64,000 nucleotides of DNA from Thermoanaerobaculia bacterium (GCA_035498405.1 DATKAE010000084.1:90544-154543), one strand, 5' to 3'; shown: positions 24,356 through 37,418, numbered from the stretch's first letter. Notes: a model not told the origin generated them from the sequence alone. Numbers and translations are program-made.

Positions 24356-27064
24356 ATGAGCGTGAACCTGAAGTCTCTGGTCGGGCGCCTGGACGCGACC
24401 TGCCGGGGTGCCCTGGAGGCTGCGGCCGGCCTCTGTCACTCGCGCGGCAACTACTCGGTCGAGATCGAGCACTTCCTCCTCAAGCTGGTCGAGCCGCCGG
24501 ACACGGATCTCGCACGGATCCTGCGCCACTATGAGGTGGACCCGGCTCGGCTCCTGAAGGACCTCACGGTGGCCGTCGGTCGCTTGAAGACGGGCAACAC
24601 CGGAGCCATCTCCATGTCGGATCGCATCCCGCAATGGGTCGAAAACGCCTGGCTGATCGGGTCGGTCGACTACAACGCGGCCCGCGTGCGCTCGGGCCAC
24701 TTGCTCCTCGCCCTTTTGACGCACAAGGAGCTCGAGCAGGTCGCGCGGGGGCTCTCGAAAGAGCTAAGCAACATTTCCGTCGAGTCGCTCGGCAAGAAGC
24801 TCGCTGACATCACGCACGGGTCCGCGGAGGAGAAGGAGGCACTTTCCCTTTCCGCGGCCCCCGCGCCCGGCTCCGTCGAGGGGGCCGCCGCAGGGGTGAC
24901 GCCCGGCACCAAGGCGCTCGACCAATACACGGAAAACCTCACGGCCAAAGCGCAGGCGGGCAAGATCGACCCGGTGTTGGGCAGGGACTTCGAGATCCGT
25001 CAGGTCATCGACATCCTGACGCGCCGCCGTCAGAACAATCCGATCCTGACGGGGGAGGCCGGAGTCGGCAAGACCGCGGTCGTCGAGGGCTTCGCGCTGC
25101 GGATCGCCAAGGGCGACGTTCCCGAGCCGCTGAAAAATGTCGCCTTGCGTACCCTCGACCTCGGTCTGCTGCAAGCGGGCGCGGGCATCAAAGGAGAGTT
25201 CGAGAACCGTCTCAAGTCCGTCATCGAGGAGGTCAAGAGCTCCCCCCAGCCGATCATTCTCTTTATCGATGAGGCGCACACGATGATTGGCGCCGGCGGC
25301 CAGGCGGGGCAGAACGACGCGGCCAACCTGTTGAAGCCCGCCCTCGCGCGGGGGGAGCTGCGGACGATCGCGGCGACGACCTGGGCGGAATACAAGAAGT
25401 ATTTCGAGAAGGACGCCGCTCTGGCCAGGCGGTTCCAGGTTGTCAAGGTGGAGGAGCCCGACGAGGAAAAAGGCATCGCAATGATGCGGGGAGTGGCCGA
25501 GAAGTTCGAGAAGCATCACGGCGTACGGATCCTGGACGAAGCAGTCGAAGACTGCGTGCGGCTGTCGCACCGCTATATCTCGGGCCGGCAGCTTCCGGAC
25601 AAGTCCGTCTCGGTGCTCGACACCGCCTGCGCCCGCGTTGCGATCGGCCAGGCTTCTACACCCCCCGCCGTCGAAGACGCGCAGAAGCGCCTGGTTCAGA
25701 TCGAGCTCGAGATCGACGCTCGGGAGCGCGAGGCGATGACCGGGGCGGATCACGGGGAGCGCCTGGGAGAGCTCCGGGTGGAGAAGGGCGAGATCCAAGC
25801 CCGCCTCGACGCTCTTCTGGCGCAATGGGACCGAGAGAAGGAGCTCGTCACGCGGATCCGGGAGGTGCGTGGCAAGCTCGAGGCTCTGGCTCCCGGGTCA
25901 GGCCGCGCGGAGGGCGGAACGCGCAAGACAGGCTCCGTTCCCAAGCCCGCGGCGGGGACAGTGCCCGCCGACGTCTCGAAGCTTCGCGAGGAACTCACCT
26001 CGCTCTCGGAGGAGCTCGCGAAGTTACAGGGGGAGACGCCGCTCTTACAGCCGGTCGTCAACTCCCAGACGATCGCGGAAGTCATCTCGGGCTGGACCGG
26101 CATTCCCGTCGGCAAGATGCTGACTGACGAGATCCGCACCGTGTTGCAGTTGAAGGACCGCCTGGAGGCCCGAGTCATCGGGCAGAGCCACGCCCTGGAG
26201 GCGATCAGTCAGCGCATTCGAACGGCACGGGCGAACCTGACGGATCCGCGCCGACCGATCGGGGTGTTTCTGCTGGTTGGGCCGTCGGGTGTGGGCAAGA
26301 CCGAAACCGCCCTGACGCTCGCCGATACGCTTTACGGCGGGGAGCGCAACCTGGTCACCATCAACATGAGCGAGTATCAGGAGGCGCACACCGTTTCGTC
26401 CCTCAAGGGTTCGCCGCCTGGTTACGTGGGTTACGGCGAAGGGGGCATCCTGACCGAGGCGGTCCGCCGCAAGCCCTACTCGGTCGTTCTCCTCGACGAA
26501 GTGGAGAAGGCCCATCCCGACGTCATGGAGCTCTTCTACCAGGTCTTCGACAAGGGAATGCTCGAGGACGGCGAGGGCCGCGAGATCGACTTCAAGAACA
26601 CGGTGATCCTCCTGACCTCCAACGCCGCGACCGACACGATGATGAAACTCTGTGCGGATCCCGAGACGGCTCCGGAGCCGGAGAAGCTCGTTGAGGCGAT
26701 CCGCCCGGAGCTGATCAAGATCTTCAAGCCGGCCCTGCTCGGCCGCATGGTCGTCGTTCCCTACTACCCGATCTCCGACAAGGTGATGCGGGAGATCATC
26801 CGGCTGCAGCTCTCCCGAATCGGAAAGCGCCTGAACGAAAATCATGGAACGAGCTTCTCCTGGGACGATACTGTGATCGCCGAAATCGCCAACCGATGCA
26901 AGGAGGTCGAGAGCGGCGCGCGCAACGTGGACCACATCCTGACGCGCACGGTCCTGCCCGAGATGTCGGGGGAGTTTCTGTCACGTATGGCCGAGGGGCA
27001 GAGCGTCGCCCGCGTGCATGTTTCAGTGGGTGATGGGGGCAAGTTTCAGTATCAAGTCTCCTGA
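24356..27064 (+). CDS. clpV: T6SS AAA+ ATPase ClpV (TssH)
   Basis: 902 aa. Clp_N domain. Two AAA+ modules with Walker A GEAGVGKT and GPSGVGKT, and Walker B LFIDEAH and VVLLDEVEKA. Confidence 0.95.
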   Translation: MSVNLKSLVGRLDATCRGALEAAAGLCHSRGNYSVEIEHFLLKLVEPPDTDLARILRHYEVDPARLLKDLTVAVGRLKTGNTGAISMSDRIPQWVENAWLIGSVDYNAARVRSGHLLLALLTHKELEQVARGLSKELSNISVESLGKKLADITHGSAEEKEALSLSAAPAPGSVEGAAAGVTPGTKALDQYTENLTAKAQAGKIDPVLGRDFEIRQVIDILTRRRQNNPILTGEAGVGKTAVVEGFALRIAKGDVPEPLKNVALRTLDLGLLQAGAGIKGEFENRLKSVIEEVKSSPQPIILFIDEAHTMIGAGGQAGQNDAANLLKPALARGELRTIAATTWAEYKKYFEKDAALARRFQVVKVEEPDEEKGIAMMRGVAEKFEKHHGVRILDEAVEDCVRLSHRYISGRQLPDKSVSVLDTACARVAIGQASTPPAVEDAQKRLVQIELEIDAREREAMTGADHGERLGELRVEKGEIQARLDALLAQWDREKELVTRIREVRGKLEALAPGSGRAEGGTRKTGSVPKPAAGTVPADVSKLREELTSLSEELAKLQGETPLLQPVVNSQTIAEVISGWTGIPVGKMLTDEIRTVLQLKDRLEARVIGQSHALEAISQRIRTARANLTDPRRPIGVFLLVGPSGVGKTETALTLADTLYGGERNLVTINMSEYQEAHTVSSLKGSPPGYVGYGEGGILTEAVRRKPYSVVLLDEVEKAHPDVMELFYQVFDKGMLEDGEGREIDFKNTVILLTSNAATDTMMKLCADPETAPEPEKLVEAIRPELIKIFKPALLGRMVVVPYYPISDKVMREIIRLQLSRIGKRLNENHGTSFSWDDTVIAEIANRCKEVESGARNVDHILTRTVLPEMSGEFLSRMAEGQSVARVHVSVGDGGKFQYQVS

Positions 27065-27097: not shown

Positions 27098-29218
27098 ATG
27101 GCGTCTTATGCGCAGGCGGAGCGCGTGCTCTCCGTCGACACACCCCTCGGCACGGATGCCGTGCTCCTGGTCGGGTTTCGAGGAGTCGACGCCATCTCGC
27201 AGCTCTTTCGATATCGGTTGGACTTGATCGCCGAGAATGCCAAGGACGTCGCTTTCGACAAGGTTCTCGGCCAGAAATGCACGGTAACGTTCCGATGGGG
27301 TGACAAGAACGCGAAGAAGCGCTACTTCAACGGTATCTGCTCCCGGATTTCGCAGGGGGAGCGAGACGCCGTTTTCACCAGCTACCATATCGAGCTCGTC
27401 CCGCAGGCGTGGCTGCTGACCCGGAAGGCCCAGAGTCGCATCTTCCAGAGGATGACAATTCCGGACATCTTGAAGAAGGTTCTCACGGGGTTCGACGTGT
27501 CCTACAAGATCCAAGGCTCCTTCGAGCCCCGCGACTTCTGTGTTCAGTATCGAGAGACCGACTTCAACTTCGCCAGTCGCCTGATGGAAGAGGAGGGAAT
27601 CTACTACTTCTTCAAGCACGAGGATGGCAATCACACGATGGTCCTCGGCAATACGCCGCAAACGCACGAGGATGTGCCCGTGCAGAACACGGTCCCCTAC
27701 GAAGAGAAGTTGGGAGGCCAGCGCGACGAGCTGCGAATCAGCTCGTGGGAGAAGGCGCAGCAGCTTCGATCCGGAAAGGTGACGCTGTGGGATCACTGTT
27801 TCGAGCTGCCGCACAAGCACCTCGAGACCGAGAAGATCATTCAGGACAGTGTCAGCGTCGGTAGCGTGACACACAAGCTCAAGGTCGCGAACAACGACAA
27901 ACTCGAGATATACGACTTCCCCGGCGAGTACGCGCAGCGCTTCGACGGTATCGACAAGGGGGGCGGCGAGCAATCCGGCGACCTCCAGAAGATCTTCCAG
28001 GACAACAAGCGAACGGTTGAGATTCGGATGCAGCAGGAAGCGGTCGCGAGCCTTGAGATCGATGGCCGAGGTAATTGCCGCCAGTTCGTTTCGGGCCACA
28101 AGTTCACCCTGCAGCGCCACTTCAACGCGGACGGCGACTACGTGCTGACGAGCGTCGGTCACACCATGACGTCGGGCGGCGACTATCGATCGGGACAGGG
28201 GCAGACGACATACGTGAACACCTTCAGTTGTATCCCGCTGGCCCTGCCGTTTCGGCCTCAGCGCCTGACACCCAAGCCATTCGTGCAGGGAACCCAGTCG
28301 GCGGTTGTGGTGGGACCTTCAGGCGAGGAGATCTTCACGGACAAGTACGGTCGCGTCAAGGTTCAGTTTCACTGGGACCGCCAAGGCAAATTCAACGCCG
28401 AGAGCTCCTGCTGGATCAGGGTTGCGAGTGCCTGGGCCGGGAAACAATGGGGAATGATCAACCTCCCTCGGATCGGCCAGGAGGTGCTGGTCGACTTCAT
28501 CGAGGGAGATCCAGATCAGCCGGTCGTCGTCGGTAGCCTTTACAACGCCGACATGATGCCGCCGTACGGACTCCCGGCTAACAAGACGCAGAGCGGCATC
28601 CAGAGCCGCAGTACGCTCCAGGGCGGCCCGCCGCACTACAACGAGTTCAAGTTCGAGGACAAGAAGGGGCAGGAGGTCGTCCATCTCCACGCCGAGAGGA
28701 ACCTGGACACATCGGTCGAGGTCGACGAAACGCACTCGGTCGGCGTCGATCGCCGGAAGACGATCAATCGCAACGAGACGACGGACGTCGGCGGTCGGCG
28801 CACGGAAACGGTCGGGAAGGACGAAGCCATCACGATTGGGGAGAGCCGGACGGAGTCGGTCGGCAAGAACGAGACGATCACGATCGGCGAGGACAGGACG
28901 GAGTCGGTCGGCAAGAACGAGACGATCACGATCTCGAAGGACCGGGACGTGTCGGTCGGCGGCAACGAATCGATCCAGATTTCGGGGTTGCGCTCCGTCT
29001 CGATCGGAAAGGATGACACCCTGAAGGTCGCGAAGACGCTCCGGGTCGAGGTCGGCGACAAGCTCGTCTTGACCTGCGGCAGTTCCGGAATCGCGCTCAC
29101 CAAAGATGGCACAATCGAAATCACGGGAAAGGACGTCTCGATCAAGGGTTCCGGCAAGGTCAAGGTTCAGGCGTCGTCGGATCTGACTTTGAAGGGCAGC
29201 AAGATCGCCGAGAACTGA
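27098..29218 (+). CDS. vgrG: T6SS spike protein VgrG (TssI)
   Basis: 706 aa. gp27/gp5-like regions (RYFNGICSRISQGE, WAGKQWGMINLPRIGQEVLVDFIEGDPDQPVVVGSLYN). C-terminal beta-helix repeats. AGGAGG RBS. Confidence 0.95.
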   Translation: MASYAQAERVLSVDTPLGTDAVLLVGFRGVDAISQLFRYRLDLIAENAKDVAFDKVLGQKCTVTFRWGDKNAKKRYFNGICSRISQGERDAVFTSYHIELVPQAWLLTRKAQSRIFQRMTIPDILKKVLTGFDVSYKIQGSFEPRDFCVQYRETDFNFASRLMEEEGIYYFFKHEDGNHTMVLGNTPQTHEDVPVQNTVPYEEKLGGQRDELRISSWEKAQQLRSGKVTLWDHCFELPHKHLETEKIIQDSVSVGSVTHKLKVANNDKLEIYDFPGEYAQRFDGIDKGGGEQSGDLQKIFQDNKRTVEIRMQQEAVASLEIDGRGNCRQFVSGHKFTLQRHFNADGDYVLTSVGHTMTSGGDYRSGQGQTTYVNTFSCIPLALPFRPQRLTPKPFVQGTQSAVVVGPSGEEIFTDKYGRVKVQFHWDRQGKFNAESSCWIRVASAWAGKQWGMINLPRIGQEVLVDFIEGDPDQPVVVGSLYNADMMPPYGLPANKTQSGIQSRSTLQGGPPHYNEFKFEDKKGQEVVHLHAERNLDTSVEVDETHSVGVDRRKTINRNETTDVGGRRTETVGKDEAITIGESRTESVGKNETITIGEDRTESVGKNETITISKDRDVSVGGNESIQISGLRSVSIGKDDTLKVAKTLRVEVGDKLVLTCGSSGIALTKDGTIEITGKDVSIKGSGKVKVQASSDLTLKGSKIAEN
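28851..28933 (+). repeat. 48-nt-period direct repeat inside vgrG, encoding beta-helix repeats
   Basis: The 35-nt string cggagtcggtcggcaagaacgagacgatcacgatc occurs identically at 28851..28885 and 28899..28933. It encodes TESVGKNETITI twice. Confidence 0.9.
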
Positions 29219-29226
29219 CGCCACCG

Positions 29227-30246
29227 ATGCTGCAGCTCCGAAACCGATCGCGATTCGCCGCGACGCTCCTTCCTCTTCCCGACGCAGCCGGCCTCGATTC
29301 CTTGTTCGTCGTTGTCAAGGGCACTTTCACCCTCGGCGCCAGGCCGGCACCTGTGCAGAACCAGGTCCCGGTTTGTCTTCGGGACGAGTACCTGGGAAAC
29401 CCCGGGCAAAGCAGCGTGACTCAACCCTCGGACGTAAGTCTTGCGAAGCCGGCCACCGATGTGCTGCTTCGAGGGCACGCCTACGCGCCCGGCGGTCAAC
29501 CTGCCTCCCGAGTGCCGGTCGCGCTGGTAGTCGGGTCGATCCGAAAGCGGGCCGAAGTCTTTGGCGACCGGGTCTGGGAAGGGGGACTCGTTTCAGCGAG
29601 GGCTTCCGCCCCGAAGCCCTTCGAGCGAGTGCCCCTCCTCTGGGAACGGTCCTTCGGAGGCGCGAGCCTGTCGGACGGGCAGCTGGGCACCGTCGAAGCG
29701 GAAGAGCGCAATCCGGTCGGCGCGGGATTCCGCGGCCGGAAGACCGCCCAACCGATCGAGGGCACTCGATTGCCCAACGTCGAGGACCCGCAGAATCTGA
29801 TGACCTCACCCCGAGACCGACCGGCTCCCGTTGGCTTCGGTCCGATCGCTCCGCACTGGCAGCCCCGGCGGTCTTACGCCGGAACCTACGACGAGCGATG
29901 GCAGAGGGAGCGGGCGCCTTTCCTGCCAAAGGACTTCGACCCGCGTTTTCTTCAAGTCGCGCCGCCGGACCAGACCGTGCCCGGCTACCTCAAGGGTGGC
30001 GAAGAGATCCACATTTCTGGCGTGACGCCCTTGGGGTCTCTGGCCTCGACAGTCCCCGGCGTTAGGATCCAGATCCTCTTCCGGTTGGACGAAACCAATC
30101 AAGCGCGGGCGGCAAGTCTCGACACGCTCATGATCGAGCCCGACGAAGGACGGATGGTGTTGGTCTGGAGGGCCGTCCTCACCGCGGACAAGAGGATCCT
30201 GCGGGTCCGAGAGGTGGAGGTTTCGGCAAAGGGGGAGGAGGCGTAG
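29227..30246 (+). CDS. DUF2169-family protein (VgrG-associated adaptor candidate)
   Basis: 339 aa directly after vgrG. N-terminus RFAATLLPLPDAAGLDSLFVVVKGTFTL resembles DUF2169 proteins as I remember them. The context (vgrG upstream, PAAR-like downstream) fits. Confidence 0.7.
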   Translation: MLQLRNRSRFAATLLPLPDAAGLDSLFVVVKGTFTLGARPAPVQNQVPVCLRDEYLGNPGQSSVTQPSDVSLAKPATDVLLRGHAYAPGGQPASRVPVALVVGSIRKRAEVFGDRVWEGGLVSARASAPKPFERVPLLWERSFGGASLSDGQLGTVEAEERNPVGAGFRGRKTAQPIEGTRLPNVEDPQNLMTSPRDRPAPVGFGPIAPHWQPRRSYAGTYDERWQRERAPFLPKDFDPRFLQVAPPDQTVPGYLKGGEEIHISGVTPLGSLASTVPGVRIQILFRLDETNQARAASLDTLMIEPDEGRMVLVWRAVLTADKRILRVREVEVSAKGEEA

Positions 30247-30248
30247 CC

Positions 30249-31325
30249 GTGGCGGCCGAAGACGTCGTCGTCGGAGGTACCGGCCTGCTAACCGCTGTCG
30301 GGTTGAGCGCGCCCGAGACAGCCGGCTCAGTGGAAAGTGGTGTCATGCGCTTCGAAGAGATCGACTGGTTGGATCGGGGATTCGAGCCCTTCACGTTGGC
30401 GACCGTGGCAGAGGAGAATCTGCCCCCACTGGCCGAGGCACTTCATGCAGAATTCGGGCTGACGACTCGTGAGACGCGCCTGCTCCGGCTGGCTGCGCCC
30501 GCACTGGCAGAGTGTCTGGAACCGCTGGCCCAACGGTCAGGACTGCTCTCCGTGATAATGGCTCTCCCGGATGCTGCGGGCTCGGTCCCAATCGATCCGA
30601 AGCGGTTTCTGGGATGGCTGCAGATCCAAAGCGGCGTCGGCCTCGACCTGGCCGGAAGCACGGTTGTGACGAAGGGCCGAGCCGGCGGACTGATTGCGCT
30701 TGAGCTGGCGAGACGCCAACTCTCCTCGGGAGGGCGCCACGTCCTCGCGGTCGGGGGCGTCGATTCCTATCTCGACCCCTATCTGCTCGGCACGCTCGAC
30801 CTGGAGGGGCGTATCAAGTCCGAGCGGCATCTCGATGGCTTCATCCCTGGAGAAGGCGCGGCATTTCTATTTCTCACGAGTCGACGCGGCGCCGAGGCGG
30901 CGAGCTTGAAGGCTCTCGCGACGCTTGCGCCCGGAGGGGAGAGCTTCGAGAAGGGGCACTTCTATTCTCCGGAACCCTACCTGGGAGACGGACTGGCGGC
31001 CGCTCTTCAGGGGTTGTTCGATGCGGCGCGACTCACATCTCCCGTTCAGGAGGTGTACTCCTCGATGAACGGCGAGAGCCACTGGGCCAAGGAGTGGGGC
31101 GTCGCGCTGCTCCGGAACAAGGACGCCATCGCGGAAGCGCACGCGATCCATCATCCCGCCGACTGCTATGGTGACCTGGGAGCCGCGGCCGGTCCAGCGA
31201 TGACGATTCTCGCCGCGCTAGGCCTGCGCGATCGGTCCCGGCGGAGCCCAACACTGGTCTACGCCTCCTCAGATCGCGGCGAGCGCGCCGCGATCGCTCT
31301 GATGGAGATTGCGGGCGGAACCTAG
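30249..31325 (+). CDS. thiolase/ketoacyl-synthase-fold protein with a degenerate active site
   Basis: 358 aa. KAS-like blocks TKGRAGGLIALELARRQLSSGGRHVLAVGGVDS, YSSMNGES and CYGDLGAAAG. The catalytic Cys/His/His positions appear substituted. Confidence 0.6.
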   Translation: MAAEDVVVGGTGLLTAVGLSAPETAGSVESGVMRFEEIDWLDRGFEPFTLATVAEENLPPLAEALHAEFGLTTRETRLLRLAAPALAECLEPLAQRSGLLSVIMALPDAAGSVPIDPKRFLGWLQIQSGVGLDLAGSTVVTKGRAGGLIALELARRQLSSGGRHVLAVGGVDSYLDPYLLGTLDLEGRIKSERHLDGFIPGEGAAFLFLTSRRGAEAASLKALATLAPGGESFEKGHFYSPEPYLGDGLAAALQGLFDAARLTSPVQEVYSSMNGESHWAKEWGVALLRNKDAIAEAHAIHHPADCYGDLGAAAGPAMTILAALGLRDRSRRSPTLVYASSDRGERAAIALMEIAGGT

Positions 31326-31712
31326 ATGCCCCAAACAACCTTTGCGAACATGCGAGGTGTCGTCCACAAGGGAAGTGGCGGGCAGAACATCGCTTTCCCA
31401 GATGTCTGCAAGACACCCGCGCCGCCGGCGCCGAGCCCGGTCCCGGTTCCCTATCCAAACCTCGGCACGTCCTCCGACACGTCCCAGGGCCCGCCGACCG
31501 TCACCACGGACGGCCAGATGCCGATGGTCAAGGGCGCACAGTACATGAAGTCTTCCGGAGACGAAGCCGGCGTGGCGGGGGGCGTCCTGTCCAGCGTCAA
31601 CATGAGCGTCTGCGAGTTCATGGTCTATTCGTTCGACGTCAAGTTCGAGGGGAACAACGTGTGCCGCTTGGGCGACCCGCTGTTCCACAACAAGAAGAAC
31701 ATCATGTTCTGA
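31326..31712 (+). CDS. PAAR-like DUF4150-domain protein
   Basis: 128 aa. FPDVCKTPAPPAPSPVPVPYPN and NNVCRLGD are DUF4150/PAAR-like signatures. The ATG abuts the previous stop. Confidence 0.85.
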   Translation: MPQTTFANMRGVVHKGSGGQNIAFPDVCKTPAPPAPSPVPVPYPNLGTSSDTSQGPPTVTTDGQMPMVKGAQYMKSSGDEAGVAGGVLSSVNMSVCEFMVYSFDVKFEGNNVCRLGDPLFHNKKNIMF

Positions 31713-31727
31713 ACCGGGAGCAAGCGG

Positions 31728-32642
31728 ATGCACTTTGGCGAGAGCGTTAAGCCACCGAGCAGCGGGCGTCACAACAAGACCTGCCCGTTCTGCGAGGGCG
31801 ACGAGCCGGAACTGCTTGGTTACAAGACGAAGAAGGGCGACCTGAAGGACGAGAGGGTTCTCGGCAGGAACCTGGCGACTAACGAGGTGGTCTCCTCCGA
31901 CGGCGCCGTCGGCCCGGTCTACCCGTTAGACGGCGGCGACCAGCCTCACAATGGATGGGAGGTCGAGCCCGGATACATCAACGAGATCGACATCCCGGTG
32001 ATCATCAAGCCGACGCCCCATCACTTGATTCCGGGGAATGCGGCGATGGCGGAATCCCATCTCGAGGTTTGGACGTGCAAGAGCTTCGGCGAAATCAAGG
32101 AAGACATCGGCTACAACATCGACTGTGCTCAGAACGGCATCTGGCTGCCTCACCTTCCACACGTGTACTGGACGAGCTTTCGGAACAAGAGGACTCGACA
32201 ACGATTCTGCGACTACTATGACCGCTGGTCGGACTTGAGCGACGATGAGCAGATGCAGGTCGGTGTGTTCGTTATGAGCGAGTTGAAGCTTCAGATGCAC
32301 TATACGGACCACGACGATCCCTACGCGCATGTCGATGACGATACGACCTACGACGGTGAAGCGAAGGAACGTTGCAATTTGCTCGCCGACCTGATACTTG
32401 AGTTCTGGGCGGATAAGTGTCCAGAGAGCTCCGACAAGGAAGAGCCGTACTACTATCCCCCGTACGGGTTGGTCGAAAGGATCAATCTGCAGTCGGATTA
32501 CATGCGAAAACGGATTACGGGTAATCCCCGGCTCTGGAAGTCGTGGGTTTCCCCGCTGGCTCAAGAAGTGTCGGCCGAGCTGAAGAGAAAGAAGAAGGTG
32601 AAGGCCAATCCGCGGGGGGCGATCAAGCGCATCCAAGTCTAG
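31728..32642 (+). CDS. putative T6SS nuclease effector, HNH/EndoVII fold (AHH/GHH-like xHH family)
   Basis: 304 aa. TPHHLIPGN ... NGIWLP ... HYTDH fits the xHH-N-H pattern of polymorphic-toxin nucleases. GGGAG RBS 7 nt upstream. Visibly lower G+C than the flanking core genes. Confidence 0.6.
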   Translation: MHFGESVKPPSSGRHNKTCPFCEGDEPELLGYKTKKGDLKDERVLGRNLATNEVVSSDGAVGPVYPLDGGDQPHNGWEVEPGYINEIDIPVIIKPTPHHLIPGNAAMAESHLEVWTCKSFGEIKEDIGYNIDCAQNGIWLPHLPHVYWTSFRNKRTRQRFCDYYDRWSDLSDDEQMQVGVFVMSELKLQMHYTDHDDPYAHVDDDTTYDGEAKERCNLLADLILEFWADKCPESSDKEEPYYYPPYGLVERINLQSDYMRKRITGNPRLWKSWVSPLAQEVSAELKRKKKVKANPRGAIKRIQV

Positions 32643-32661
32643 GGATCCCGGCGAGGACACT

Positions 32662-33234
32662 ATGGTGTTCTATCAGTTGGACTGGAAGGTCAATCAGCGA
32701 GCCCTGGGCATCAAGCTCGCCGTCATCGGGAAAGAGCCGAATCTGCGTGTGCCCTGGCTCATGGGTCGACGGTTCGAGAAGGAGGTTCCCCAGCCTATCG
32801 CTCTTAGCCTTAGCCCGCGGGGCGGCCCGGACATGCCGGACGTGTTCCTGACGGGAATCCCCCTCTTTTCCGACCGTCTGCTCGAAGCCATGCGCAAGGC
32901 AGGAGCCGACAACTTCGATGTCTACTCGACGGAGCTCGCCGATCCCGCAAAGGGGACAATCGTTCGGCACTACAAGGCGGTCAACATCATCGGGAAGATC
33001 GAGGCGGCGGATCTGAAGAAGTCGACATTCGATCCTCGGTCGGAACCGAATCTGATGGAGTTCGACGTACTCGTGATCGACGAGCGCAAAGTGAGGGGGG
33101 CCAACCTCTTTCGCCTCGCGGAAAATCCGCTGCGGATCGTGATTTCCGAACGGATACAAAGGGCCCTGGTGACGATGCCACTTGTCGGCGTTCTCCTGGT
33201 TCCGCTCGACGGGCGCGAAGAGGAAGGGGCGTAG
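32662..33234 (+). CDS. candidate cognate immunity protein (possibly Imm11/DUF1629-like)
   Basis: 190 aa immediately after the toxin gene. No signal peptide, which fits a cytoplasmic nuclease target. The family assignment is from memory only. Confidence 0.45.
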   Translation: MVFYQLDWKVNQRALGIKLAVIGKEPNLRVPWLMGRRFEKEVPQPIALSLSPRGGPDMPDVFLTGIPLFSDRLLEAMRKAGADNFDVYSTELADPAKGTIVRHYKAVNIIGKIEAADLKKSTFDPRSEPNLMEFDVLVIDERKVRGANLFRLAENPLRIVISERIQRALVTMPLVGVLLVPLDGREEEGA

Positions 33235-33249
33235 AAGAGGAGGTATCTC

Positions 33250-33687
33250 ATGGGGAAGAAGGTCGAAGAGGGCATAGCGGGCGTCCAGCAGGGACGCGTT
33301 CTTCGCGGGAGGGTCCGGACCGTGCGCGCCGATGGCCTGGTCGTGATCTTCGCCGACGCCGAGAGCAAGGACGTTGCGTGCGAGATCCTTCAAGTCTCCG
33401 GCCCGCCGAACTGTCTCGCACGCGGCGATGACGTCCTCGTCTGGCGGCCGGGCCCTGGAGAGCAGGGCGTTGTTCTGGGCCGCATCGGGGTCGACGCCAA
33501 CCCGGGCGATAGTCCTCGTCTCCCGGACGAGCTCCTCCTGGAGGCCAAGAACGGTTTGACGCTCCGCGTCGGCGACGGCTCCATCACTCTCCGCGCCGAC
33601 GGGAAGATCCTCATCAAGGGCAAGGACCTCGTGTCCCACGCCAAGCGCCTGAACCGGATCAAGGGCGGAGCGGTCTCGATCAACTGA
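33250..33687 (+). CDS. small spike-like protein (OB-fold-like N-terminus plus gp5/VgrG-type C-terminal beta-helix segment)
   Basis: 145 aa with a strong AGGAGG RBS. Its C-terminus LTLRVGDGSITLRADGKILIKGKDLVS aligns by eye with the VgrG C-terminus LVLTCGSSGIALTKDGTIEITGKDVSI in this window. Confidence 0.5.
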   Translation: MGKKVEEGIAGVQQGRVLRGRVRTVRADGLVVIFADAESKDVACEILQVSGPPNCLARGDDVLVWRPGPGEQGVVLGRIGVDANPGDSPRLPDELLLEAKNGLTLRVGDGSITLRADGKILIKGKDLVSHAKRLNRIKGGAVSIN

Positions 33688-33693
33688 GGCCGG

Positions 33694-34932
33694 ATGCCCG
33701 CCGCGAAGCTGCGCTTTTTGCCGGACATCCTCGACGAGCACTTCGAGGAGCTGGCGTTTCTGTGGAGCCAGCGTCGGGCAGCTCTCTGCTCACCGATCTA
33801 CACATGGCGCGCTTTTCTACAACTCGAGGGACGCATCGAGGCCCACGTCCAGGGAATTCTCGTCGTTGGCGAAGGCGCCCTTCCGCTGCTTGAAGAGGGG
33901 CTTCGCGCTGAGGACCCGGACGTCCTGTTCGCCGCGGCGTATGCGCTGCTGCGATCGGGTGGCGGGAGGGGCACCCAGCTCGTGGGCGAGGCATTCTTCG
34001 GGTCGGAGGGCGAGAAGCTCGAATCCCTGCGGGAGGCTCTTGCCCATGGTCTCCTGGGGAACCTCGAGGCTCGCCTACAGGAAGAGTCGGCTGCTGGGTC
34101 GCCGCGGCCTATGTCGGCAGCCGCTGCGCATGCCCTCGCTTTTCATGGGAAGCTGAACCTGAACGCGGAGCAGTTCAACCGGCTACTCCGCAGTGAGAAC
34201 ATCGAGGTTCGCCGCGGGGGGTGGCGAGCGGCCTCGGTCGACGTCGTTGCCCGGCGCTCCGAGGTCTATCGCGAAGGAATCGGCGACCCGGACGCCGACA
34301 TCCGGCGGCACGCCCTGGTCGGCGCGGCCTGGGCGCGCGAAGCTTGGCTGCTCGATGCTTGCCGTGAGCGGGTGCGCGGGTCGAAGGGCGAGGACCACGA
34401 CGCGGCGTACTTGCTTGCCATCCTCGGGCGCCCGGAGGATTCCCGCGAGATCCTGGCGCTCGGGCGGAACGCCTCGCTCGGTCCGCGGAGATTTAGGCTG
34501 CTCGGGTCATTCGGGCATCCACTCGTGGTGGAGGATCTGCTGTCCGAGCTTACGAGCGCCGACGCCGCGACGGCAGCAGCTGCCGGCGCGGCCTTCACCA
34601 AGATCACGGGCTGCGACATCGCTTCCGGAAGCCGGGTTGCCCTCGCTCCCGAGGACGGGCACGAGCCAGACGAGTTTGAGAAGGACTTTTTGGACGAAGT
34701 GGTGCTGCCAGATCCCGAAAAGGCCCGTGCCCACTGGAAGAAGATTCAGCCCCAGTTCACGAAGGGGACGCGGTGGTGCCGCGGGCGGGACTTGAGCCGC
34801 GGTTGCAGCCCCGAGGATCTCGACCAGCTCGACATGGAATCCCGCTGGGAGGCCTGTCTCCGCGGAAACTTCGACCGGACTTGGAAGGGCTCCGCTCTCG
34901 ATCTCGAAGTCTTTCCGCAGCGCTCTGCCTGA
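33694..34932 (+). CDS. HEAT-repeat protein, TIGR02270-like
   Basis: 412 aa. N-terminal DILDEHFEELAFLWSQRRAAL is the hallmark I recall for TIGR02270. Helical-repeat composition. Last gene of the + strand cargo module. Confidence 0.65.
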   Translation: MPAAKLRFLPDILDEHFEELAFLWSQRRAALCSPIYTWRAFLQLEGRIEAHVQGILVVGEGALPLLEEGLRAEDPDVLFAAAYALLRSGGGRGTQLVGEAFFGSEGEKLESLREALAHGLLGNLEARLQEESAAGSPRPMSAAAAHALAFHGKLNLNAEQFNRLLRSENIEVRRGGWRAASVDVVARRSEVYREGIGDPDADIRRHALVGAAWAREAWLLDACRERVRGSKGEDHDAAYLLAILGRPEDSREILALGRNASLGPRRFRLLGSFGHPLVVEDLLSELTSADAATAAAAGAAFTKITGCDIASGSRVALAPEDGHEPDEFEKDFLDEVVLPDPEKARAHWKKIQPQFTKGTRWCRGRDLSRGCSPEDLDQLDMESRWEACLRGNFDRTWKGSALDLEVFPQRSA

Positions 34933-34999: not shown

Positions 35000-35848
35000 C
35001 TAAGGGAACTTGTGCCAGCCGCCGTAGTCGACCACGACCGGGAGGTCGTCTTCGGTTGCGACGGGTTCCCAGATAGGTGCCGCCACGGCCGCCCGGAATT
35101 CGTATCCGATCTCGTTGAAAGAAAACCCGGTCGGAAACCAGGTGCTCCACTGATCGGCGTTGAATCGCTTCTCCTTGTGCATTGAGACGCGGAAGGCGTC
35201 CGGCGTTTCGTCTATGACCACGTTGAAGTAGAGACCACCGGCGTCGGGTCGGTCCGCCACACCGACGAAGAATTCGATGAGGTGCCGCTGGTTCTTTCGC
35301 TGGGACCGGTCACGAGGCATCGCTTGTCCTGGGACATCGGCCCAGCTTTGTTTCAGGGAGCCGTCATTGCTAAAGTACTGGTTGGCTTCCCCACCCTTGG
35401 TGTAAGCGCCCGTCCGGGAGCGGCCGTCAAGCCCGAGCGGAGCTTCCCAGACTCTCCAGACCCTGTAGATTGCCAAAGGGGACATACCCCAGGAGTCCGT
35501 CGTGTCTTTTCCGTCGCACCAGACCTCGATGCGGTTGTTTCCGTGTACGAAGAAGTTGTCGCCGTCGCGAGCGAGGATGTGCGAGCCATCGATTGGAGTC
35601 GAATCCTTGATCGTGAAGCCGAGCATGTCGGATCTCTGGGGCGAGTAGCGGAGCTGAATCCTGGAGGGTTTGTGGCGCAACGGCTTCGGCGCGTGCTGGA
35701 CCTTGACCCGGGCCTTCGTCACGATCTCGCCCTGCGGCGGAATGACTGTCCACGCGGCCGACGGGTCGTGCGCGTCGTTGTGACCCAGGGGGCCGGGCGT
35801 TCTCGGTGGCAACCTGTTTCCGTCGGTCATCGTGCGTCGTCCATCCAA
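35000..35848 (-). CDS. hypothetical protein (no family recognised)
   Basis: 282-aa ORF, Trp/aromatic-rich, with no signal peptide. The start is TTG 35848 or ATG 35830. Lies downstream of the tssBC-like gene on the same strand. Confidence 0.5.
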   Translation of the reverse strand: MDGRRTMTDGNRLPPRTPGPLGHNDAHDPSAAWTVIPPQGEIVTKARVKVQHAPKPLRHKPSRIQLRYSPQRSDMLGFTIKDSTPIDGSHILARDGDNFFVHGNNRIEVWCDGKDTTDSWGMSPLAIYRVWRVWEAPLGLDGRSRTGAYTKGGEANQYFSNDGSLKQSWADVPGQAMPRDRSQRKNQRHLIEFFVGVADRPDAGGLYFNVVIDETPDAFRVSMHKEKRFNADQWSTWFPTGFSFNEIGYEFRAAVAAPIWEPVATEDDLPVVVDYGGWHKFP

Positions 35849-35927
35849 TCCTGAAGGAATCTCTTCGGGAGAATCGAGGGTCCTCGATTAGTTTACCGAA
35901 TCCGGTGCCCCCCGTCACAAGAGACGG

Positions 35928-37418
35928 TCAACCTTCGAACGTCCCGAGCCGTGATGGGGGGTCGGCCACCGATTGGAGCCGCGCCATGCGGACGACATCT
36001 CGATCCGGCAGTGCCATGACCGCCATGACGCCTCGTTCGAGCATCGCTTCGGCGACCGAGAGCGGCAGGGACGTCTCGGCGCACGGCTGCAGTCGGCTCT
36101 CGCCGTCGTCCTCGTAGACGTGCAGGGGAAGTCCTGTTAGGGTCCCGGGGGACTCGAGGAGGGCGAGGCAGAGCAGAGCAGGATTTCCCCAGAGGTAGCT
36201 GTCGTGGTCCGGAGTACCTTCGAACTCCTCGAAGGCGAAGTGCTCGGCCGGGTCGGTCCGCCCACCGTAGGGCAGGCGGAGCAGGAAGCGCGGCGCGGCA
36301 AGCCCCAGGTATCGCGCCTCGGGCAGGTGGCGAAGGGCCGCCCAGAGCTCCTCGACGGGCTCGCCCTGCGACTTCAGCCACCGCCGGGGATCCGGAGCGG
36401 ACGCGAAGGAGTCGCAGGCGAGAAGCGAGGGAGCCGCGGCGGAGAGAAACGGAGCATTGGCGGCGGCGGCCACCTTTCCGACGCGGGCGAGTAGGGCGAC
36501 GTCTTCGACCGTCGGACCGAATTCGTAGAGCCCTGCCACGGCGCTCCACGGTGACGCTCCCGGTGTGTCGCGCACCGAGCCGACGAGGATGCGGTAGAGG
36601 CCGGAGTCGGAGAGCTCGCTGGCGCCCTTTGCGTCGAGGGCGAGCTCTTCCTTTGTGGCGTCGAGAATCTCGACGCGCAGGTCTTCGCCGGTCTCCACAT
36701 GCCGGAGCAGGAAGACGAGACCCCGCCAGGCGGCCTCGATCCCCTGGAAGGCCGGGTCGTGCAGGACGCGGCGCATCCGGGCACCGATCTCCTGGTCGGC
36801 CCGAATGATTAGCCGTTCCTTCTCGCCGCCCCCGGCTCGCTCGAGGTGGGGCGTCACGATCTGCTCAACGAAGGCCTCGAAGTCGCCGCTCTTAGACTTG
36901 GGAGACGGGGTTGCTCCGCTGGTCGCGAGGATCTCCTCCAGAAGGCCCGGTGCCTCCGGTCCGTCACTCGGGGTCCCCGGCGGCGGCTCGCGACGGGCCG
37001 CCGTCTGCTGCGCCGACCACGCCCGGACCGCGGCGGCGGCCTCGTCGAACCGCTCGGGATCCTCGAGCCCTTGACGGATTCGCCGAAGATCGTGGAATGC
37101 GGGCTCCCGCAACAGGAGTCGGTCGGGATGAAGGTCGTCGAGGCTCCGAGGGCGAAATAAAGGGCCGGTCCCCTCCGCCGAAGCGAGTCGGATCTCGACG
37201 GAAAGGCGTGCAAAGAGAGCGTCCAAGTTATCGATATCCACGGCAATCGGGCGGCGCTCGGGGCCGAGCGGCTCTCGGACGAGACGGCTGGCCCGGTCGG
37301 AGAAGTCGCCGATGACGAGGAGGCGTCGCCGCTCCTCCGGATCGATGCGGGGCTCTTCTTCCTCCCGAGAGGAGACGAGAAAGGCCTCGGCTCGGTCCGG
37401 ATGTGCAAAGGTCGGCAT
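35928..37418 (-). CDS. fused TssB-like/TssC-like sheath paralog, truncated at both ends relative to canonical TssB+TssC
   Basis: 496 aa. The N-terminal part LLVIGDFSD...IAVDIDNLDALFARLSVEI...SLDDLHPDRL parallels TssB (VLGVLGDFSG...IEIDRDNFDQVLAGMAPRL...SLQDFEPDNV). The rest, HDPAFQGIEAAWRGLVFLL, AAANAPFLSAAAPSLL, RYLGLAAPRFLLRLPYG and YLWGNPA, parallels TssC. Confidence 0.7.
   Translation of the reverse strand: MPTFAHPDRAEAFLVSSREEEEPRIDPEERRRLLVIGDFSDRASRLVREPLGPERRPIAVDIDNLDALFARLSVEIRLASAEGTGPLFRPRSLDDLHPDRLLLREPAFHDLRRIRQGLEDPERFDEAAAAVRAWSAQQTAARREPPPGTPSDGPEAPGLLEEILATSGATPSPKSKSGDFEAFVEQIVTPHLERAGGGEKERLIIRADQEIGARMRRVLHDPAFQGIEAAWRGLVFLLRHVETGEDLRVEILDATKEELALDAKGASELSDSGLYRILVGSVRDTPGASPWSAVAGLYEFGPTVEDVALLARVGKVAAAANAPFLSAAAPSLLACDSFASAPDPRRWLKSQGEPVEELWAALRHLPEARYLGLAAPRFLLRLPYGGRTDPAEHFAFEEFEGTPDHDSYLWGNPALLCLALLESPGTLTGLPLHVYEDDGESRLQPCAETSLPLSVAEAMLERGVMAVMALPDRDVVRMARLQSVADPPSRLGTFEG

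What the first reader, a model, noticed from the sequence alone, without database searches (positions are those of the whole stretch)
27098..34932. VgrG-linked cargo module resembling the P. aeruginosa vgrG1b/Tse7 cluster, with differences
**Gene order**
- vgrG, DUF2169, thiolase-like, DUF4150 PAAR-like, xHH nuclease, small cytoplasmic protein, mini-spike, TIGR02270-like HEAT protein.
- All are tightly packed on one strand.
- From memory, PA0095-PA0101 contains the same domain set (DUF2169, thiolase-like, DUF4150-toxin, immunity, TIGR02270).

**Differences here**
- The toxin is a separate ORF with a different xHH nuclease.
- A small spike-like gene precedes the HEAT protein.

**Why it matters**
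- The roles of the DUF2169, thiolase-like and HEAT components in effector loading are still poorly defined.
- A distantly related, split version is therefore informative.
Basis: partly seen in the sequence, partly recalled or inferred. Interest (0 to 1): 0.6.

Follow-up and report, generated by a model that had tools for sequence, protein, structure and literature searches.

The report
T6SS spike-tip loading module, split-toxin variant
These eight genes are a known kind of helper kit that caps the spike of a bacterial type VI secretion system and loads a DNA-cutting antibacterial toxin, here in a lineage-typical version where the cap and the toxin are separate proteins.

Summary
Eight tightly packed + strand genes (27098-34932) follow tssF-tssG-clpV at the end of a T6SS cluster:
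- VgrG
- DUF2169
- a thiolase-like protein
- a stand-alone DUF4150 ("PIPY") cap
- an AHH-type nuclease
- an Imm11 immunity protein
- a 145-aa mini-spike
- a TIGR02270-like HEAT protein

This is the already described "Tvp class II" / "DUF2169 synteny type A" module (P. aeruginosa PA0095-PA0101; EMBO J 2026, JBC 2025).

The mini-spike is not an extra part. It is a divergent TvpC, the PA0096/DUF6484 equivalent (profile-profile E 1e-23), placed after the immunity gene.

The real difference is a small, effector-less cap followed by a separately encoded cargo toxin.
- Cap and cargo are likewise separate in 23 of 25 related loci from Gemmatimonadota, Acidobacteriota, Planctomycetota and Verrucomicrobiota. 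The cultured Gemmatirosa kalamazoonensis has the same gene order.
- The shared reading frame across the TGA is not conserved, so read-through is not the design.
- The cargo proteins share a short N-terminal motif, also in unrelated toxins.
- tvpC is followed by the HEAT gene in 49 of 71 loci.

This scan has met the same module repeatedly on other DNA. I rate it a new variant of a known kind, of modest interest.

The parts
24356..27064 (+). clpV/tssH, last core gene before the module (context)
   Evidence: TIGR03345 score 1309 bits, above the cut-off. Upstream lie tssK, tssM, tagF, tssA, tssC, tssF and tssG.
27098..29218 (+). vgrG (706 aa) with an extended beta-prism. It is the only VgrG found in the ~90 % complete genome.
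   Evidence: TIGR03361 2e-171, Phage_GPD, Gp5_trimer_C. Single genomic copy. Its C-terminal tip aligns with the TvpC tail.
29227..30246 (+). tvpA: single-domain DUF2169 chaperone of the PIPY cap
   Evidence: PF09937 4e-102, residues 23-315, with no pentapeptide-repeat extension. Single copy.
30249..31325 (+). tvpD: PRK06147 thiolase/ketosynthase-fold pseudoenzyme
   Evidence: NF004798 1.4e-58, full length but below the cut-off. The two KAS active-site His align to Asn and Asp. The nucleophile position reads Gly in 40 of 43 family members and is never Cys.
31326..31712 (+). stand-alone PIPY/DUF4150 PAAR-like spike cap (128 aa)
   Evidence: PF13665 4.5e-39 covering residues 21-127, with a PVPY motif. 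It ends at the domain boundary, as in 23 of 25 related loci. It is 70-86 % identical across phyla.
31710..31727 (+). junction: TGA stop, five in-frame codons, and GGGAG 7 nt before the ATG of the toxin gene
   Evidence: The cap-cargo gap is a multiple of 3 in only 7 of 20 cases listed (window included), and the stop codons vary.
31728..32642 (+). cargo effector: AHH-type His-Me-finger nuclease (304 aa) with a flexible N-terminal MHFGES motif and a CPFC motif
   Evidence: 76 relatives, mostly ~300 aa and stand-alone, some passing PF14412. Invariant H98, H99, N136, H191. AF2 pLDDT 91.7, with residues 1-10 at low confidence.
32662..33234 (+). Imm11 immunity protein
   Evidence: PF07791 6.8e-11, 42.3 bits against the 22.1 cut-off. 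Single copy in the genome.
33250..33687 (+). tvpC-like mini-spike: OB fold plus a short beta-prism whose tail mimics the VgrG tip
   Evidence: 883 relatives. AF2 model with an OB barrel at pLDDT ~90. Foldseek hits to the R2 pyocin, AlgoCIS, VgrS and phage spikes. BLASTP against the VgrG C-terminus gives 8e-5. hhalign against DUF6484 proteins gives E 1.2e-23.
33694..34932 (+). TIGR02270-like HEAT/armadillo-repeat protein, last gene of the operon
   Evidence: TIGR02270 9.8e-37 over 4-378 of 410 model positions, below the cut-off. It follows tvpC in 49 of 71 loci. The next gene is convergent.

Best explanation
The region is the spike-tip assembly and effector-loading operon of the genome's only detected T6SS. 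It is a Tvp class II (DUF2169 synteny type A) module.

Proposed mechanism:
1. The 145-aa TvpC-like protein is a trimeric stand-in for the VgrG tip. The small PIPY cap is first assembled on it, shielded by the DUF2169 chaperone (TvpA) and the catalytically dead thiolase-fold protein (TvpD).
2. The capped assembly is then transferred to the long VgrG beta-prism.
3. Unlike P. aeruginosa Tse7, the toxin is not fused to the cap. A separately translated AHH-type DNase rides as non-covalent cargo. It is most likely held through its N-terminal region on the PIPY/VgrG tip.
4. Imm11 neutralises the DNase in the producer.
5. The HEAT-repeat protein, genetically coupled to tvpC, most likely acts at the pre-complex or hand-over step.

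Shown here: the identity and homology of all eight parts, loss of the thiolase catalytic residues, the VgrG-tip mimicry, and the clade-wide split architecture.

Taken from the literature: the DUF2169-PIPY chaperoning, the TvpC pre-complex model, and the need for the cognate single-domain PAAR and the toxin N-terminus in homologous Myxococcus systems.

Inferred: the docking site of the cargo and the role of the HEAT protein.
For: TvpC:
- AF2 model with an OB fold plus beta strands.
- Spike-protein fold matches.
- Tail aligned to the VgrG tip.
- Full-length profile match to DUF6484 TvpC proteins.

TvpD: the catalytic Cys/His/His positions read Gly/Asn/Asp family-wide.

Split architecture:
- The PIPY ORF ends at the domain boundary in 23 of 25 loci, with TGA, TAG or TAA stops.
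- The same order, ClpV-VgrG-DUF2169-thiolase-PIPY-toxin-Imm11-TvpC-HEAT, occurs in about 25 loci of four phyla and in the Gemmatirosa kalamazoonensis plasmid CP007129.1.
- Toxin relatives are stand-alone proteins of about 300 aa.
- The toxin and immunity proteins are the variable parts (23-51 % and 27-44 % identity), whereas PIPY is 70-86 % identical.

Cargo N-terminus:
- The motif M-x(1-3)-[GLVM]-E occurs in 20 of 22 cargo ORFs against 4 % of background ORFs.
- It is also present in cargo with no Pfam match (L004, L017, L024).
- It lies in the only low-confidence segment of the toxin model.

Literature:
- Tvp classes and the pre-complex model: PMC13373197.
- DUF2169 chaperones PIPY: PMC11883445.
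- pefF and pefG, downstream of the immunity gene, are required in P. mirabilis: PMC5714391.
- M. xanthus loci with a single-domain PAAR, an AHH toxin and Imm11 need the cognate PAAR and the toxin's N-terminal 40-70 aa for delivery, while the truncated toxin remains a DNase: PMC12077131.
Against: - No protein-protein contact was tested here. Multimer modelling was not available.
- The window toxin itself is below the Pfam AHH threshold. Its model has no structural neighbour in the PDB, so 'nuclease' rests on motifs, family members and Imm11 linkage.
- The N-terminal motif was defined post hoc on related sequences, so its p-value is inflated.
- The motif was not seen downstream of short PIPY genes in other phyla.
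- The Myxococcus paper describes the N-terminal regions as highly varied. I did not determine whether those PAARs are DUF4150-type.
- TIGR02270 and PRK06147 scores are below the curated cut-offs.
- The HEAT role is inferred from gene adjacency alone. Published fusions link TIGR02270 to PRK06147 rather than to TvpC (PMC7714669).
Confidence: 0.75

Rival explanations
1. Programmed TGA read-through (or a recent nonsense mutation) makes the real product a 438-aa PIPY-nuclease fusion like Tse7. The two ORFs would then be one specialised effector.
For: The two ORFs share a frame and are separated only by TGA and five sense codons. UGA followed by A is a comparatively weak terminator in E. coli; this comes from my own knowledge and was not tested. 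Fused PIPY-toxins exist in L027, L028 and in Proteobacteria.
Against: - The PIPY ORF stops 1-2 residues after the domain in 23 of 25 relatives, using TGA, TAG or TAA.
- The cap-cargo gap is a multiple of 3 in only 7 of 20 cases listed (window included), which is about chance.
- A GGGAG box lies 7 nt before the toxin ATG.
- The C-terminus ...HNKKNIMG/F is conserved as an end.
Confidence: 0.05
2. The nuclease is not carried on the PIPY/VgrG tip. It is exported another way, for example inside one of the three Hcp paralogues, or bound along the VgrG beta-prism through the HEAT protein acting as adaptor. The Tvp proteins would then serve only spike assembly.
For: The HEAT protein has no assigned function and is conserved in the operon. 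In S. marcescens the Tvp-dependent VgrG1-Paar1 spike carries no separate spike-bound effector (PMC13373197).
Against: - At 304 aa (about 35 kDa) and as one compact domain, the toxin is larger than typical Hcp-lumen cargo. This is established knowledge of Hcp cargo size, not tested here.
- The toxin gene always sits directly after the PIPY gene, with gaps of 2-68 nt.
- In M. xanthus the cognate single-domain PAAR is specifically required for each homologous AHH toxin (PMC12077131).
- HEAT proteins are equally present in loci with fused PIPY-toxins, which need no cargo adaptor.
Confidence: 0.12
3. The conserved cargo N-terminus is not a loading signal. It is a recombination or translation-coupling junction that lets toxin-immunity cassettes be swapped behind a constant PIPY gene.
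For: PIPY is the most conserved component while the toxin and immunity proteins are the most variable. Unrelated toxins share only the first ~8 residues. Polymorphic toxin loci diversify by cassette recombination (PMC3482391, listed but not read).
Against: Conservation is at the amino-acid level, with varied codons and varied gaps of 2-68 nt. The two ideas do not exclude each other. Deleting the N-terminal region abolishes delivery in the Myxococcus homologues.
Confidence: 0.08

Closest known systems
Tvp class II accessory system / DUF2169 synteny type A: P. aeruginosa H1-T6SS vgrG1b cluster PA0095-PA0101 (VgrG1b, PA0096 TvpC/DUF6484, PA0097 TvpA/DUF2169, PA0098 TvpD/PRK06147, Tse7, Tsi7, PA0101) and the P. 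mirabilis pef operon
   Same: - It has the same set of protein families: VgrG of 700-800 aa, single-domain DUF2169, dead thiolase-fold protein, DUF4150/PIPY cap, short OB-plus-beta-prism VgrG mimic, and a HEAT/armadillo protein.
- The payload is a His-Me-finger nuclease.
- The genes form one operon on one strand.
   Different: - The cap is a 128-aa stand-alone protein and the toxin a separate cargo ORF (AHH rather than Tox-GHH2). The EMBO J paper found class I/II caps fused to effector domains in its representative strains.
- tvpC lies after the immunity gene and directly before the HEAT gene, instead of directly after vgrG.
- The TvpC family is not recognised by PF20093.
- This VgrG is the only one detected in the genome, not one of several.
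Myxococcus xanthus DK1622 T6SS kin-discrimination loci: single-domain PAAR + AHH nuclease (Toxin1 = MXAN_0050) + Imm11 (MXAN_0049)
   Same: - The order is small cap gene, then a separately encoded AHH toxin, then Imm11.
- Toxin relatives include a Myxococcus stipitatus protein at 48 % identity.
- Experiments show the cognate PAAR and the toxin N-terminal region are needed for delivery, and that the toxin is a DNase.
   Different: - The Myxococcus loci are orphan cassettes far from the T6SS cluster, and no Tvp genes are reported beside them.
- I did not verify whether their PAARs are DUF4150-type.
- Their N-terminal regions are described as highly varied, whereas the clade studied here shares a short motif.
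Tvp class III (Serratia marcescens VgrG1-TvpAB-TvpB-TvpC-Paar1)
   Same: It has a small, effector-less DUF4150 cap. A TvpC pre-complex has been shown experimentally to precede the VgrG complex.
   Different: Class III uses a long DUF3540 TvpC and pentapeptide-repeat TvpB/TvpAB, and has no thiolase-like TvpD. None of these class III features is present here.

Membership tests
Tvp class II / DUF2169 synteny type A | vgrG-linked single-domain DUF2169 (TvpA) without a pentapeptide-repeat extension | tested here: met
   PF09937 4e-102 over residues 23-315 of 339, with no other Pfam domain. It lies directly after vgrG.
Tvp class II / DUF2169 synteny type A | PRK06147 thiolase-like protein (TvpD) between the DUF2169 and DUF4150 genes | tested here: met
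   NF004798 E 1.4e-58 over 3-342 of 349 positions, but 198.8 bits is below the equivalog cut-off of 342. The position is as expected. The catalytic residues are replaced.
Tvp class II / DUF2169 synteny type A | DUF4150/PIPY PAAR-like domain with a P(I/V)P(Y/F) motif | tested here: met
   PF13665 4.5e-39. The sequence ...PVPVPYPN... is present.
Tvp class II / DUF2169 synteny type A | short TvpC of the DUF6484 family (OB fold plus a very short beta-prism) | tested here: inconclusive
   The Pfam PF20093 model does not hit the window protein even at E<=10, and hits only 2 of 34 relatives weakly. However, hhalign against nine proteins that do match PF20093 gives 99.6 % probability and E 1.2e-23 over 130 columns. 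The AF2 model and Foldseek agree with an OB fold plus spike. It is a homologue outside the curated family boundary.
Tvp class II / DUF2169 synteny type A | armadillo/HEAT-repeat protein (TIGR02270-like) in the operon | tested here: inconclusive
   TIGR02270 E 9.8e-37 over 4-378 of 410 positions, but 126.9 bits is below the cut-off of 206.8. There are weak HEAT_2 and HEAT hits.
Tvp class II / DUF2169 synteny type A | PAAR-like domain carries a specialised effector domain (as in all class II representatives of the defining paper) | tested here: not met
   The PIPY protein ends one residue after the domain. The same holds in 23 of 25 related loci. The paper presents this as an observation on its strain set, not as a formal criterion.
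Tvp class II / DUF2169 synteny type A | formation of a TvpC-TvpA-TvpD-PAAR pre-complex that is replaced by VgrG, and a requirement for T6SS activity | not testable with these tools
   This needs co-purification and genetics, or multimer modelling, which was not available.
AHH nuclease (PF14412) with Imm11 (PF07791) toxin-immunity pair | sequence match to the AHH model above the gathering score | tested here: not met
   The window protein scores 18.9 bits against the 22.3 cut-off, E 0.0016. Twelve of its 76 relatives carry a precomputed PF14412 hit. The cargo of L003 and L023 passes the cut-off.
AHH nuclease (PF14412) with Imm11 (PF07791) toxin-immunity pair | conserved xHH ... N ... H His-Me-finger residues | tested here: met
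   H98, H99, P102, G103, N136, G137 and H191 are invariant in 44 aligned relatives.
AHH nuclease (PF14412) with Imm11 (PF07791) toxin-immunity pair | Imm11 gene immediately downstream | tested here: met
   PF07791 scores 42.3 bits against the 22.1 cut-off, 19 nt downstream. Imm11 directly precedes tvpC in 20 of the 27 group-A loci.
AHH nuclease (PF14412) with Imm11 (PF07791) toxin-immunity pair | DNase activity neutralised by the cognate immunity protein | not testable with these tools
   This has been shown only for M. xanthus homologues (PMC12077131).

The most novel reading that the evidence does not exclude
In this clade (Gemmatimonadota, Acidobacteriota, Planctomycetota, Verrucomicrobiota) the class II Tvp kit has become a general cargo-loading platform.
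- A nearly invariant stand-alone PIPY cap accepts interchangeable, unrelated toxins through a short shared N-terminal peptide (M-T-x-hydrophobic-G-E).
- The uncharacterised TIGR02270 HEAT protein is the dedicated partner of the TvpC mimic at the pre-complex or hand-over step.
- The kit builds the only spike of the machine rather than an alternative one.
Probability: 0.3. Interest if true: 0.55.

Novelty: new variant of a known kind. Interest (0 to 1): 0.35.

Why it matters
The module itself is known, so the locus does not open a new field. It does add three testable points to a young model (Tvp pre-complexes, 2026).
1. A class II system with a small cap and a non-covalent cargo toxin contradicts the tentative rule that class I/II caps carry their own toxin. 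It separates 'cap assembly' from 'toxin attachment', so each can be studied alone.
2. A short N-terminal motif shared by unrelated cargo proteins is a candidate loading tag for PIPY-tipped spikes.
3. The tvpC-HEAT gene pair is the most conserved adjacency across seven or more phyla. This gives the first concrete lead for the function of the TIGR02270 protein, which neither key paper addresses.

Gemmatirosa kalamazoonensis, a cultured soil bacterium, carries the same operon and could serve as a test organism. The toxin is an ordinary antibacterial nuclease.

Tried and rejected
- **Read-through fusion of PIPY and toxin: rejected as a design feature.** Frames are at chance level (7 of 20 gaps are a multiple of 3), stop codons are mixed, the toxin gene has its own Shine-Dalgarno box, and all toxin relatives are stand-alone.
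- **Direct Pfam placement of the mini-spike in DUF6484: failed**. It was resolved by profile-profile comparison.
- **Foldseek/PDB search with the high-confidence toxin model:** no hit with E<1. A profile search of PDB sequences gave only spurious apolipoprotein hits. A PDB sequence search with the HEAT protein gave only weak AlphaRep repeats.
- **Search for the cargo N-terminal motif after short PIPY genes in Proteobacteria and Myxococcota loci:** not found. Those genes are followed by other Tvp genes.
- **Look-up of the Myxococcus stipitatus homologue's genomic context:** not on record.
- **Liu et al. AEM 2021 (PMC8091009):** not held, so I could not establish whether the M. xanthus PAARs are DUF4150-type.
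- **Presence of the module in congeners:** DUF2169 was not found in 24 same-family genomes searched, including five congeners that have TssF. In at least three of these (G003, G004, G005) the TssF match lies within a few kb of a contig end, so absence cannot be concluded.
- **Multimer structure prediction:** not available. I did not try to force one with artificial fusions.


Full report
**1. What is there**

The region 27098-34932 holds eight + strand ORFs separated by 0-19 nt. It follows tssK, tssM, tagF, tssA, tssC, tssF, tssG and clpV. It ends opposite a convergent gene. It is therefore the 3' end of a T6SS main cluster.

Profile searches give:
- VgrG: 706 aa, TIGR03361 2e-171.
- DUF2169: PF09937 4e-102.
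- PRK06147-type thiolase-like protein: NF004798 1.4e-58, full length, below the equivalog cut-off.
- Stand-alone Tox-PAAR-like/DUF4150 protein of 128 aa: PF13665 4.5e-39, with a PVPY motif.
- A 304-aa protein with a weak AHH match: E 0.0016, below the cut-off.
- Imm11: PF07791 6.8e-11.
- A 145-aa protein without any Pfam or NCBIfam hit.
- A 412-aa HEAT-repeat protein homologous to TIGR02270: 9.8e-37 over nearly the whole model, below the cut-off.

**2. The mini-spike is a TvpC**

- The 145-aa protein has 883 relatives of the same length, all unannotated. Their C-terminal 50 residues are nearly invariant (alignment A1).
- That tail aligns with the last ~60 residues of the window's own VgrG (BLASTP 8e-5).
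- An AlphaFold2 model built on A1 shows a confident OB barrel (pLDDT about 90) followed by short beta strands. The C-terminus has low confidence, as expected for a strand-swapped trimer modelled as a monomer.
- Foldseek finds IF1-type OB folds. Over the full length it finds central spike proteins: R2 pyocin, AlgoCIS, Salmonella VgrS, and phage P1, phi92 and Mu (E about 1e-3).
- Proteins found in proteobacterial and myxobacterial loci through the shared tail match Pfam DUF6484 at 1e-11 to 1e-24. A profile of them aligns with A1 over 130 columns, OB domain included (hhalign 99.6 %, E 1.2e-23).

So the gene is a divergent member of the TvpC (PA0096) lineage that lies outside the current Pfam model. 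It is not an additional component.

**3. The thiolase-like protein is a pseudoenzyme**

In alignments with solved KAS II enzymes, the two active-site histidines (the HGT and GH motifs) face Asn and Asp. By register, the nucleophile position reads Gly. Across 43 homologues from the related loci the three positions read G / N (or S, T, P) / D (or E). The nucleophile position never carries a cysteine. This fits the proposed co-chaperone role, TvpD.

**4. Match to the literature**

- Sachar et al. (JBC 2025, PMC11883445) define DUF2169 'synteny type A' as vgrG, DUF6484, DUF2169, thiolase-like, DUF4150 and an armadillo-like repeat gene. They show that DUF2169 chaperones the PIPY cap.
- Monlezun et al. 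(EMBO J 2026, PMC13373197) name the proteins TvpA, TvpC and TvpD. They show experimentally in Serratia that a TvpC pre-complex precedes the VgrG complex. They place the P. aeruginosa PA0095-PA0099 set in 'class II'.
- Neither 'PA0101' nor 'TIGR02270' occurs in the EMBO paper. TIGR02270 occurs in only one paper of the library. That paper notes fusions of TIGR02270 to PRK06147 proteins.
- In P. mirabilis the genes downstream of the immunity gene (pefF, pefG) are required for killing.

The window is thus a member of a known kind of system.

**5. What differs, and is it real**

I fetched 71 loci through the TvpC family and annotated them with the window's proteins. Twenty-seven loci (L002-L028) form one group. 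They come from Gemmatimonadota, Acidobacteriota, Planctomycetota and Verrucomicrobiota MAGs.
- Most of this group share the window's order: ClpV-VgrG-DUF2169-thiolase-PIPY-toxin-Imm11-TvpC-HEAT.
- In 23 of the 25 that hold both genes, the PIPY ORF ends 1-2 residues after the domain, at a conserved ...HNKKNIMG end, with TGA, TAG or TAA stops.
- Only two planctomycete loci have fused toxins.
- The same order is present on the 1.1-Mb plasmid CP007129.1 of the cultured Gemmatirosa kalamazoonensis.
- Proteobacterial and myxobacterial loci instead show VgrG-TvpC-DUF2169-thiolase-PIPY(fused)...HEAT, or VgrG-TvpC-HEAT.

The EMBO paper noted that, in its strain set, class I/II caps carry effector domains and only class III caps are small. 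This clade is a counter-example.

In the window the PIPY and toxin ORFs share a frame across a single TGA. This is not conserved: the gap is a multiple of 3 in 7 of 20 cases. The toxin gene also has its own GGGAG box. All 76 toxin relatives are stand-alone. Read-through is therefore not the design.

**6. The cargo**

- The toxin family has invariant H98-H99, N136 and H191, plus C19 and nearly invariant C22 and C231.
- Some members pass the AHH model.
- The AF2 model is one compact domain (pLDDT 91.7, pTM 0.90). Only the first ~10 residues are flexible.
- No PDB structure resembles the model.
- AHH-Imm11 pairs delivered by the T6SS are experimentally characterised in Myxococcus xanthus. There the single-domain PAAR gene next to each toxin is specifically required. 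Deleting the toxin's N-terminal 40-70 residues abolishes the phenotype but leaves DNase activity (PMC12077131; PMC12077181).
- Across the related loci the toxin and immunity proteins are the variable parts (23-51 % and 27-44 % identity). PIPY is 70-86 % identical.
- Three loci (L004, L017, L024) carry cargo with no Pfam match.
- Nevertheless 20 of 22 cargo ORFs begin with M-x(1-3)-[GLVM]-E, typically MTDFGE. Background ORFs match at 4 %. The pattern was defined after seeing the data and the sequences are related, so the nominal p-value overstates the case.
- The motif was not found after short PIPY genes in other phyla.

**7. HEAT protein**

The gene directly after tvpC is the HEAT gene in 49 of 71 loci, from seven or more phyla. 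vgrG directly precedes tvpC in only about 27. This is the most conserved adjacency of the module. It suggests the HEAT protein acts with TvpC. This rests on gene order only.

**8. Genome context**

The assembly (3.98 Mb, 139 contigs, about 90 % complete) has one VgrG, one DUF2169, one PIPY and one Imm11. No canonical PAAR_motif protein was detected. The module therefore appears to build the only spike of this T6SS, not an alternative one.

The closest loci by ClpV, VgrG and PIPY identity are Acidobacteriota MAGs. The organism's name is not given to me. DUF2169 was not found in 24 same-family genomes searched. Several of these have a near-identical TssF, but on contigs that break close to it. 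No conclusion on gain or loss is drawn.

**9. Verdict**

This is a real, intact operon and a new variant of a known kind. The variant has a stand-alone cap plus cargo toxin, tvpC relocated next to the HEAT gene, and a TvpC subfamily outside Pfam. The same scan has already reported this module in several other genomes. Interest is modest. The most useful leads are the candidate cargo tag and the TvpC-HEAT coupling.

Noticed in passing
window 35000-37418 (- strand): Convergent to the module lie a 282-aa protein with no family match and a 496-aa protein with VipA-like and partial VipB/TssC matches (TIGR03355 9.7e-58, below the cut-off). This looks like a TssB-TssC fusion paralogue. It is already the subject of another report of this scan.
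   Followed up: no
window 31728-32642: The toxin model is very confident (pLDDT 91.7, pTM 0.90), yet it has no Foldseek neighbour in the PDB (best E 2.8) and no sequence-profile hit. This AHH subfamily has no solved structure. C19, C22 and C231 are (nearly) invariant and may form a structural metal site.
   Followed up: partly
L004:6934-8921 and L017:4781-6806; L024:7994-8896: In these related loci the AHH/Imm11 pair is replaced by cargo with no Pfam match (381 aa, or 183 aa), followed by small unannotated ORFs (111, 114 and 109 aa). These are candidate new toxin-immunity pairs that keep the N-terminal MTDxGE-type start.
   Followed up: partly
L073 (Gemmatirosa kalamazoonensis plasmid CP007129.1, 946850-963749): A cultured type strain carries the same nine-gene order, tssG-clpV-vgrG-DUF2169-thiolase-PIPY-toxin-Imm11-144 aa-403 aa, on a 1.1-Mb replicon. 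The last two genes have no precomputed Pfam hits.
   Followed up: partly
window 31707-31709: The window's PIPY protein ends ...NIMF, whereas 21 of the related stand-alone PIPY proteins end ...(I/M)(M/L)G. The significance is unknown.
   Followed up: no
L015:7886-9411: In one Gemmatimonadota chromosome (CP070815.1) the PIPY gene sits directly before tvpC, with the Imm11 gene upstream of it. This is a rearranged order within the same clade.
   Followed up: no
L023, L026, L029: vgrG and DUF2169 appear as several overlapping partial frames in these MAG contigs. This is probably due to indel errors or pseudogenes. I did not distinguish the two.
   Followed up: no
G003, G004, G005 (same-genus genomes): These congeners have a near-identical TssF, but on contigs that end within a few kb of it. 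The assemblies seem to break at or near the vgrG module.
   Followed up: no
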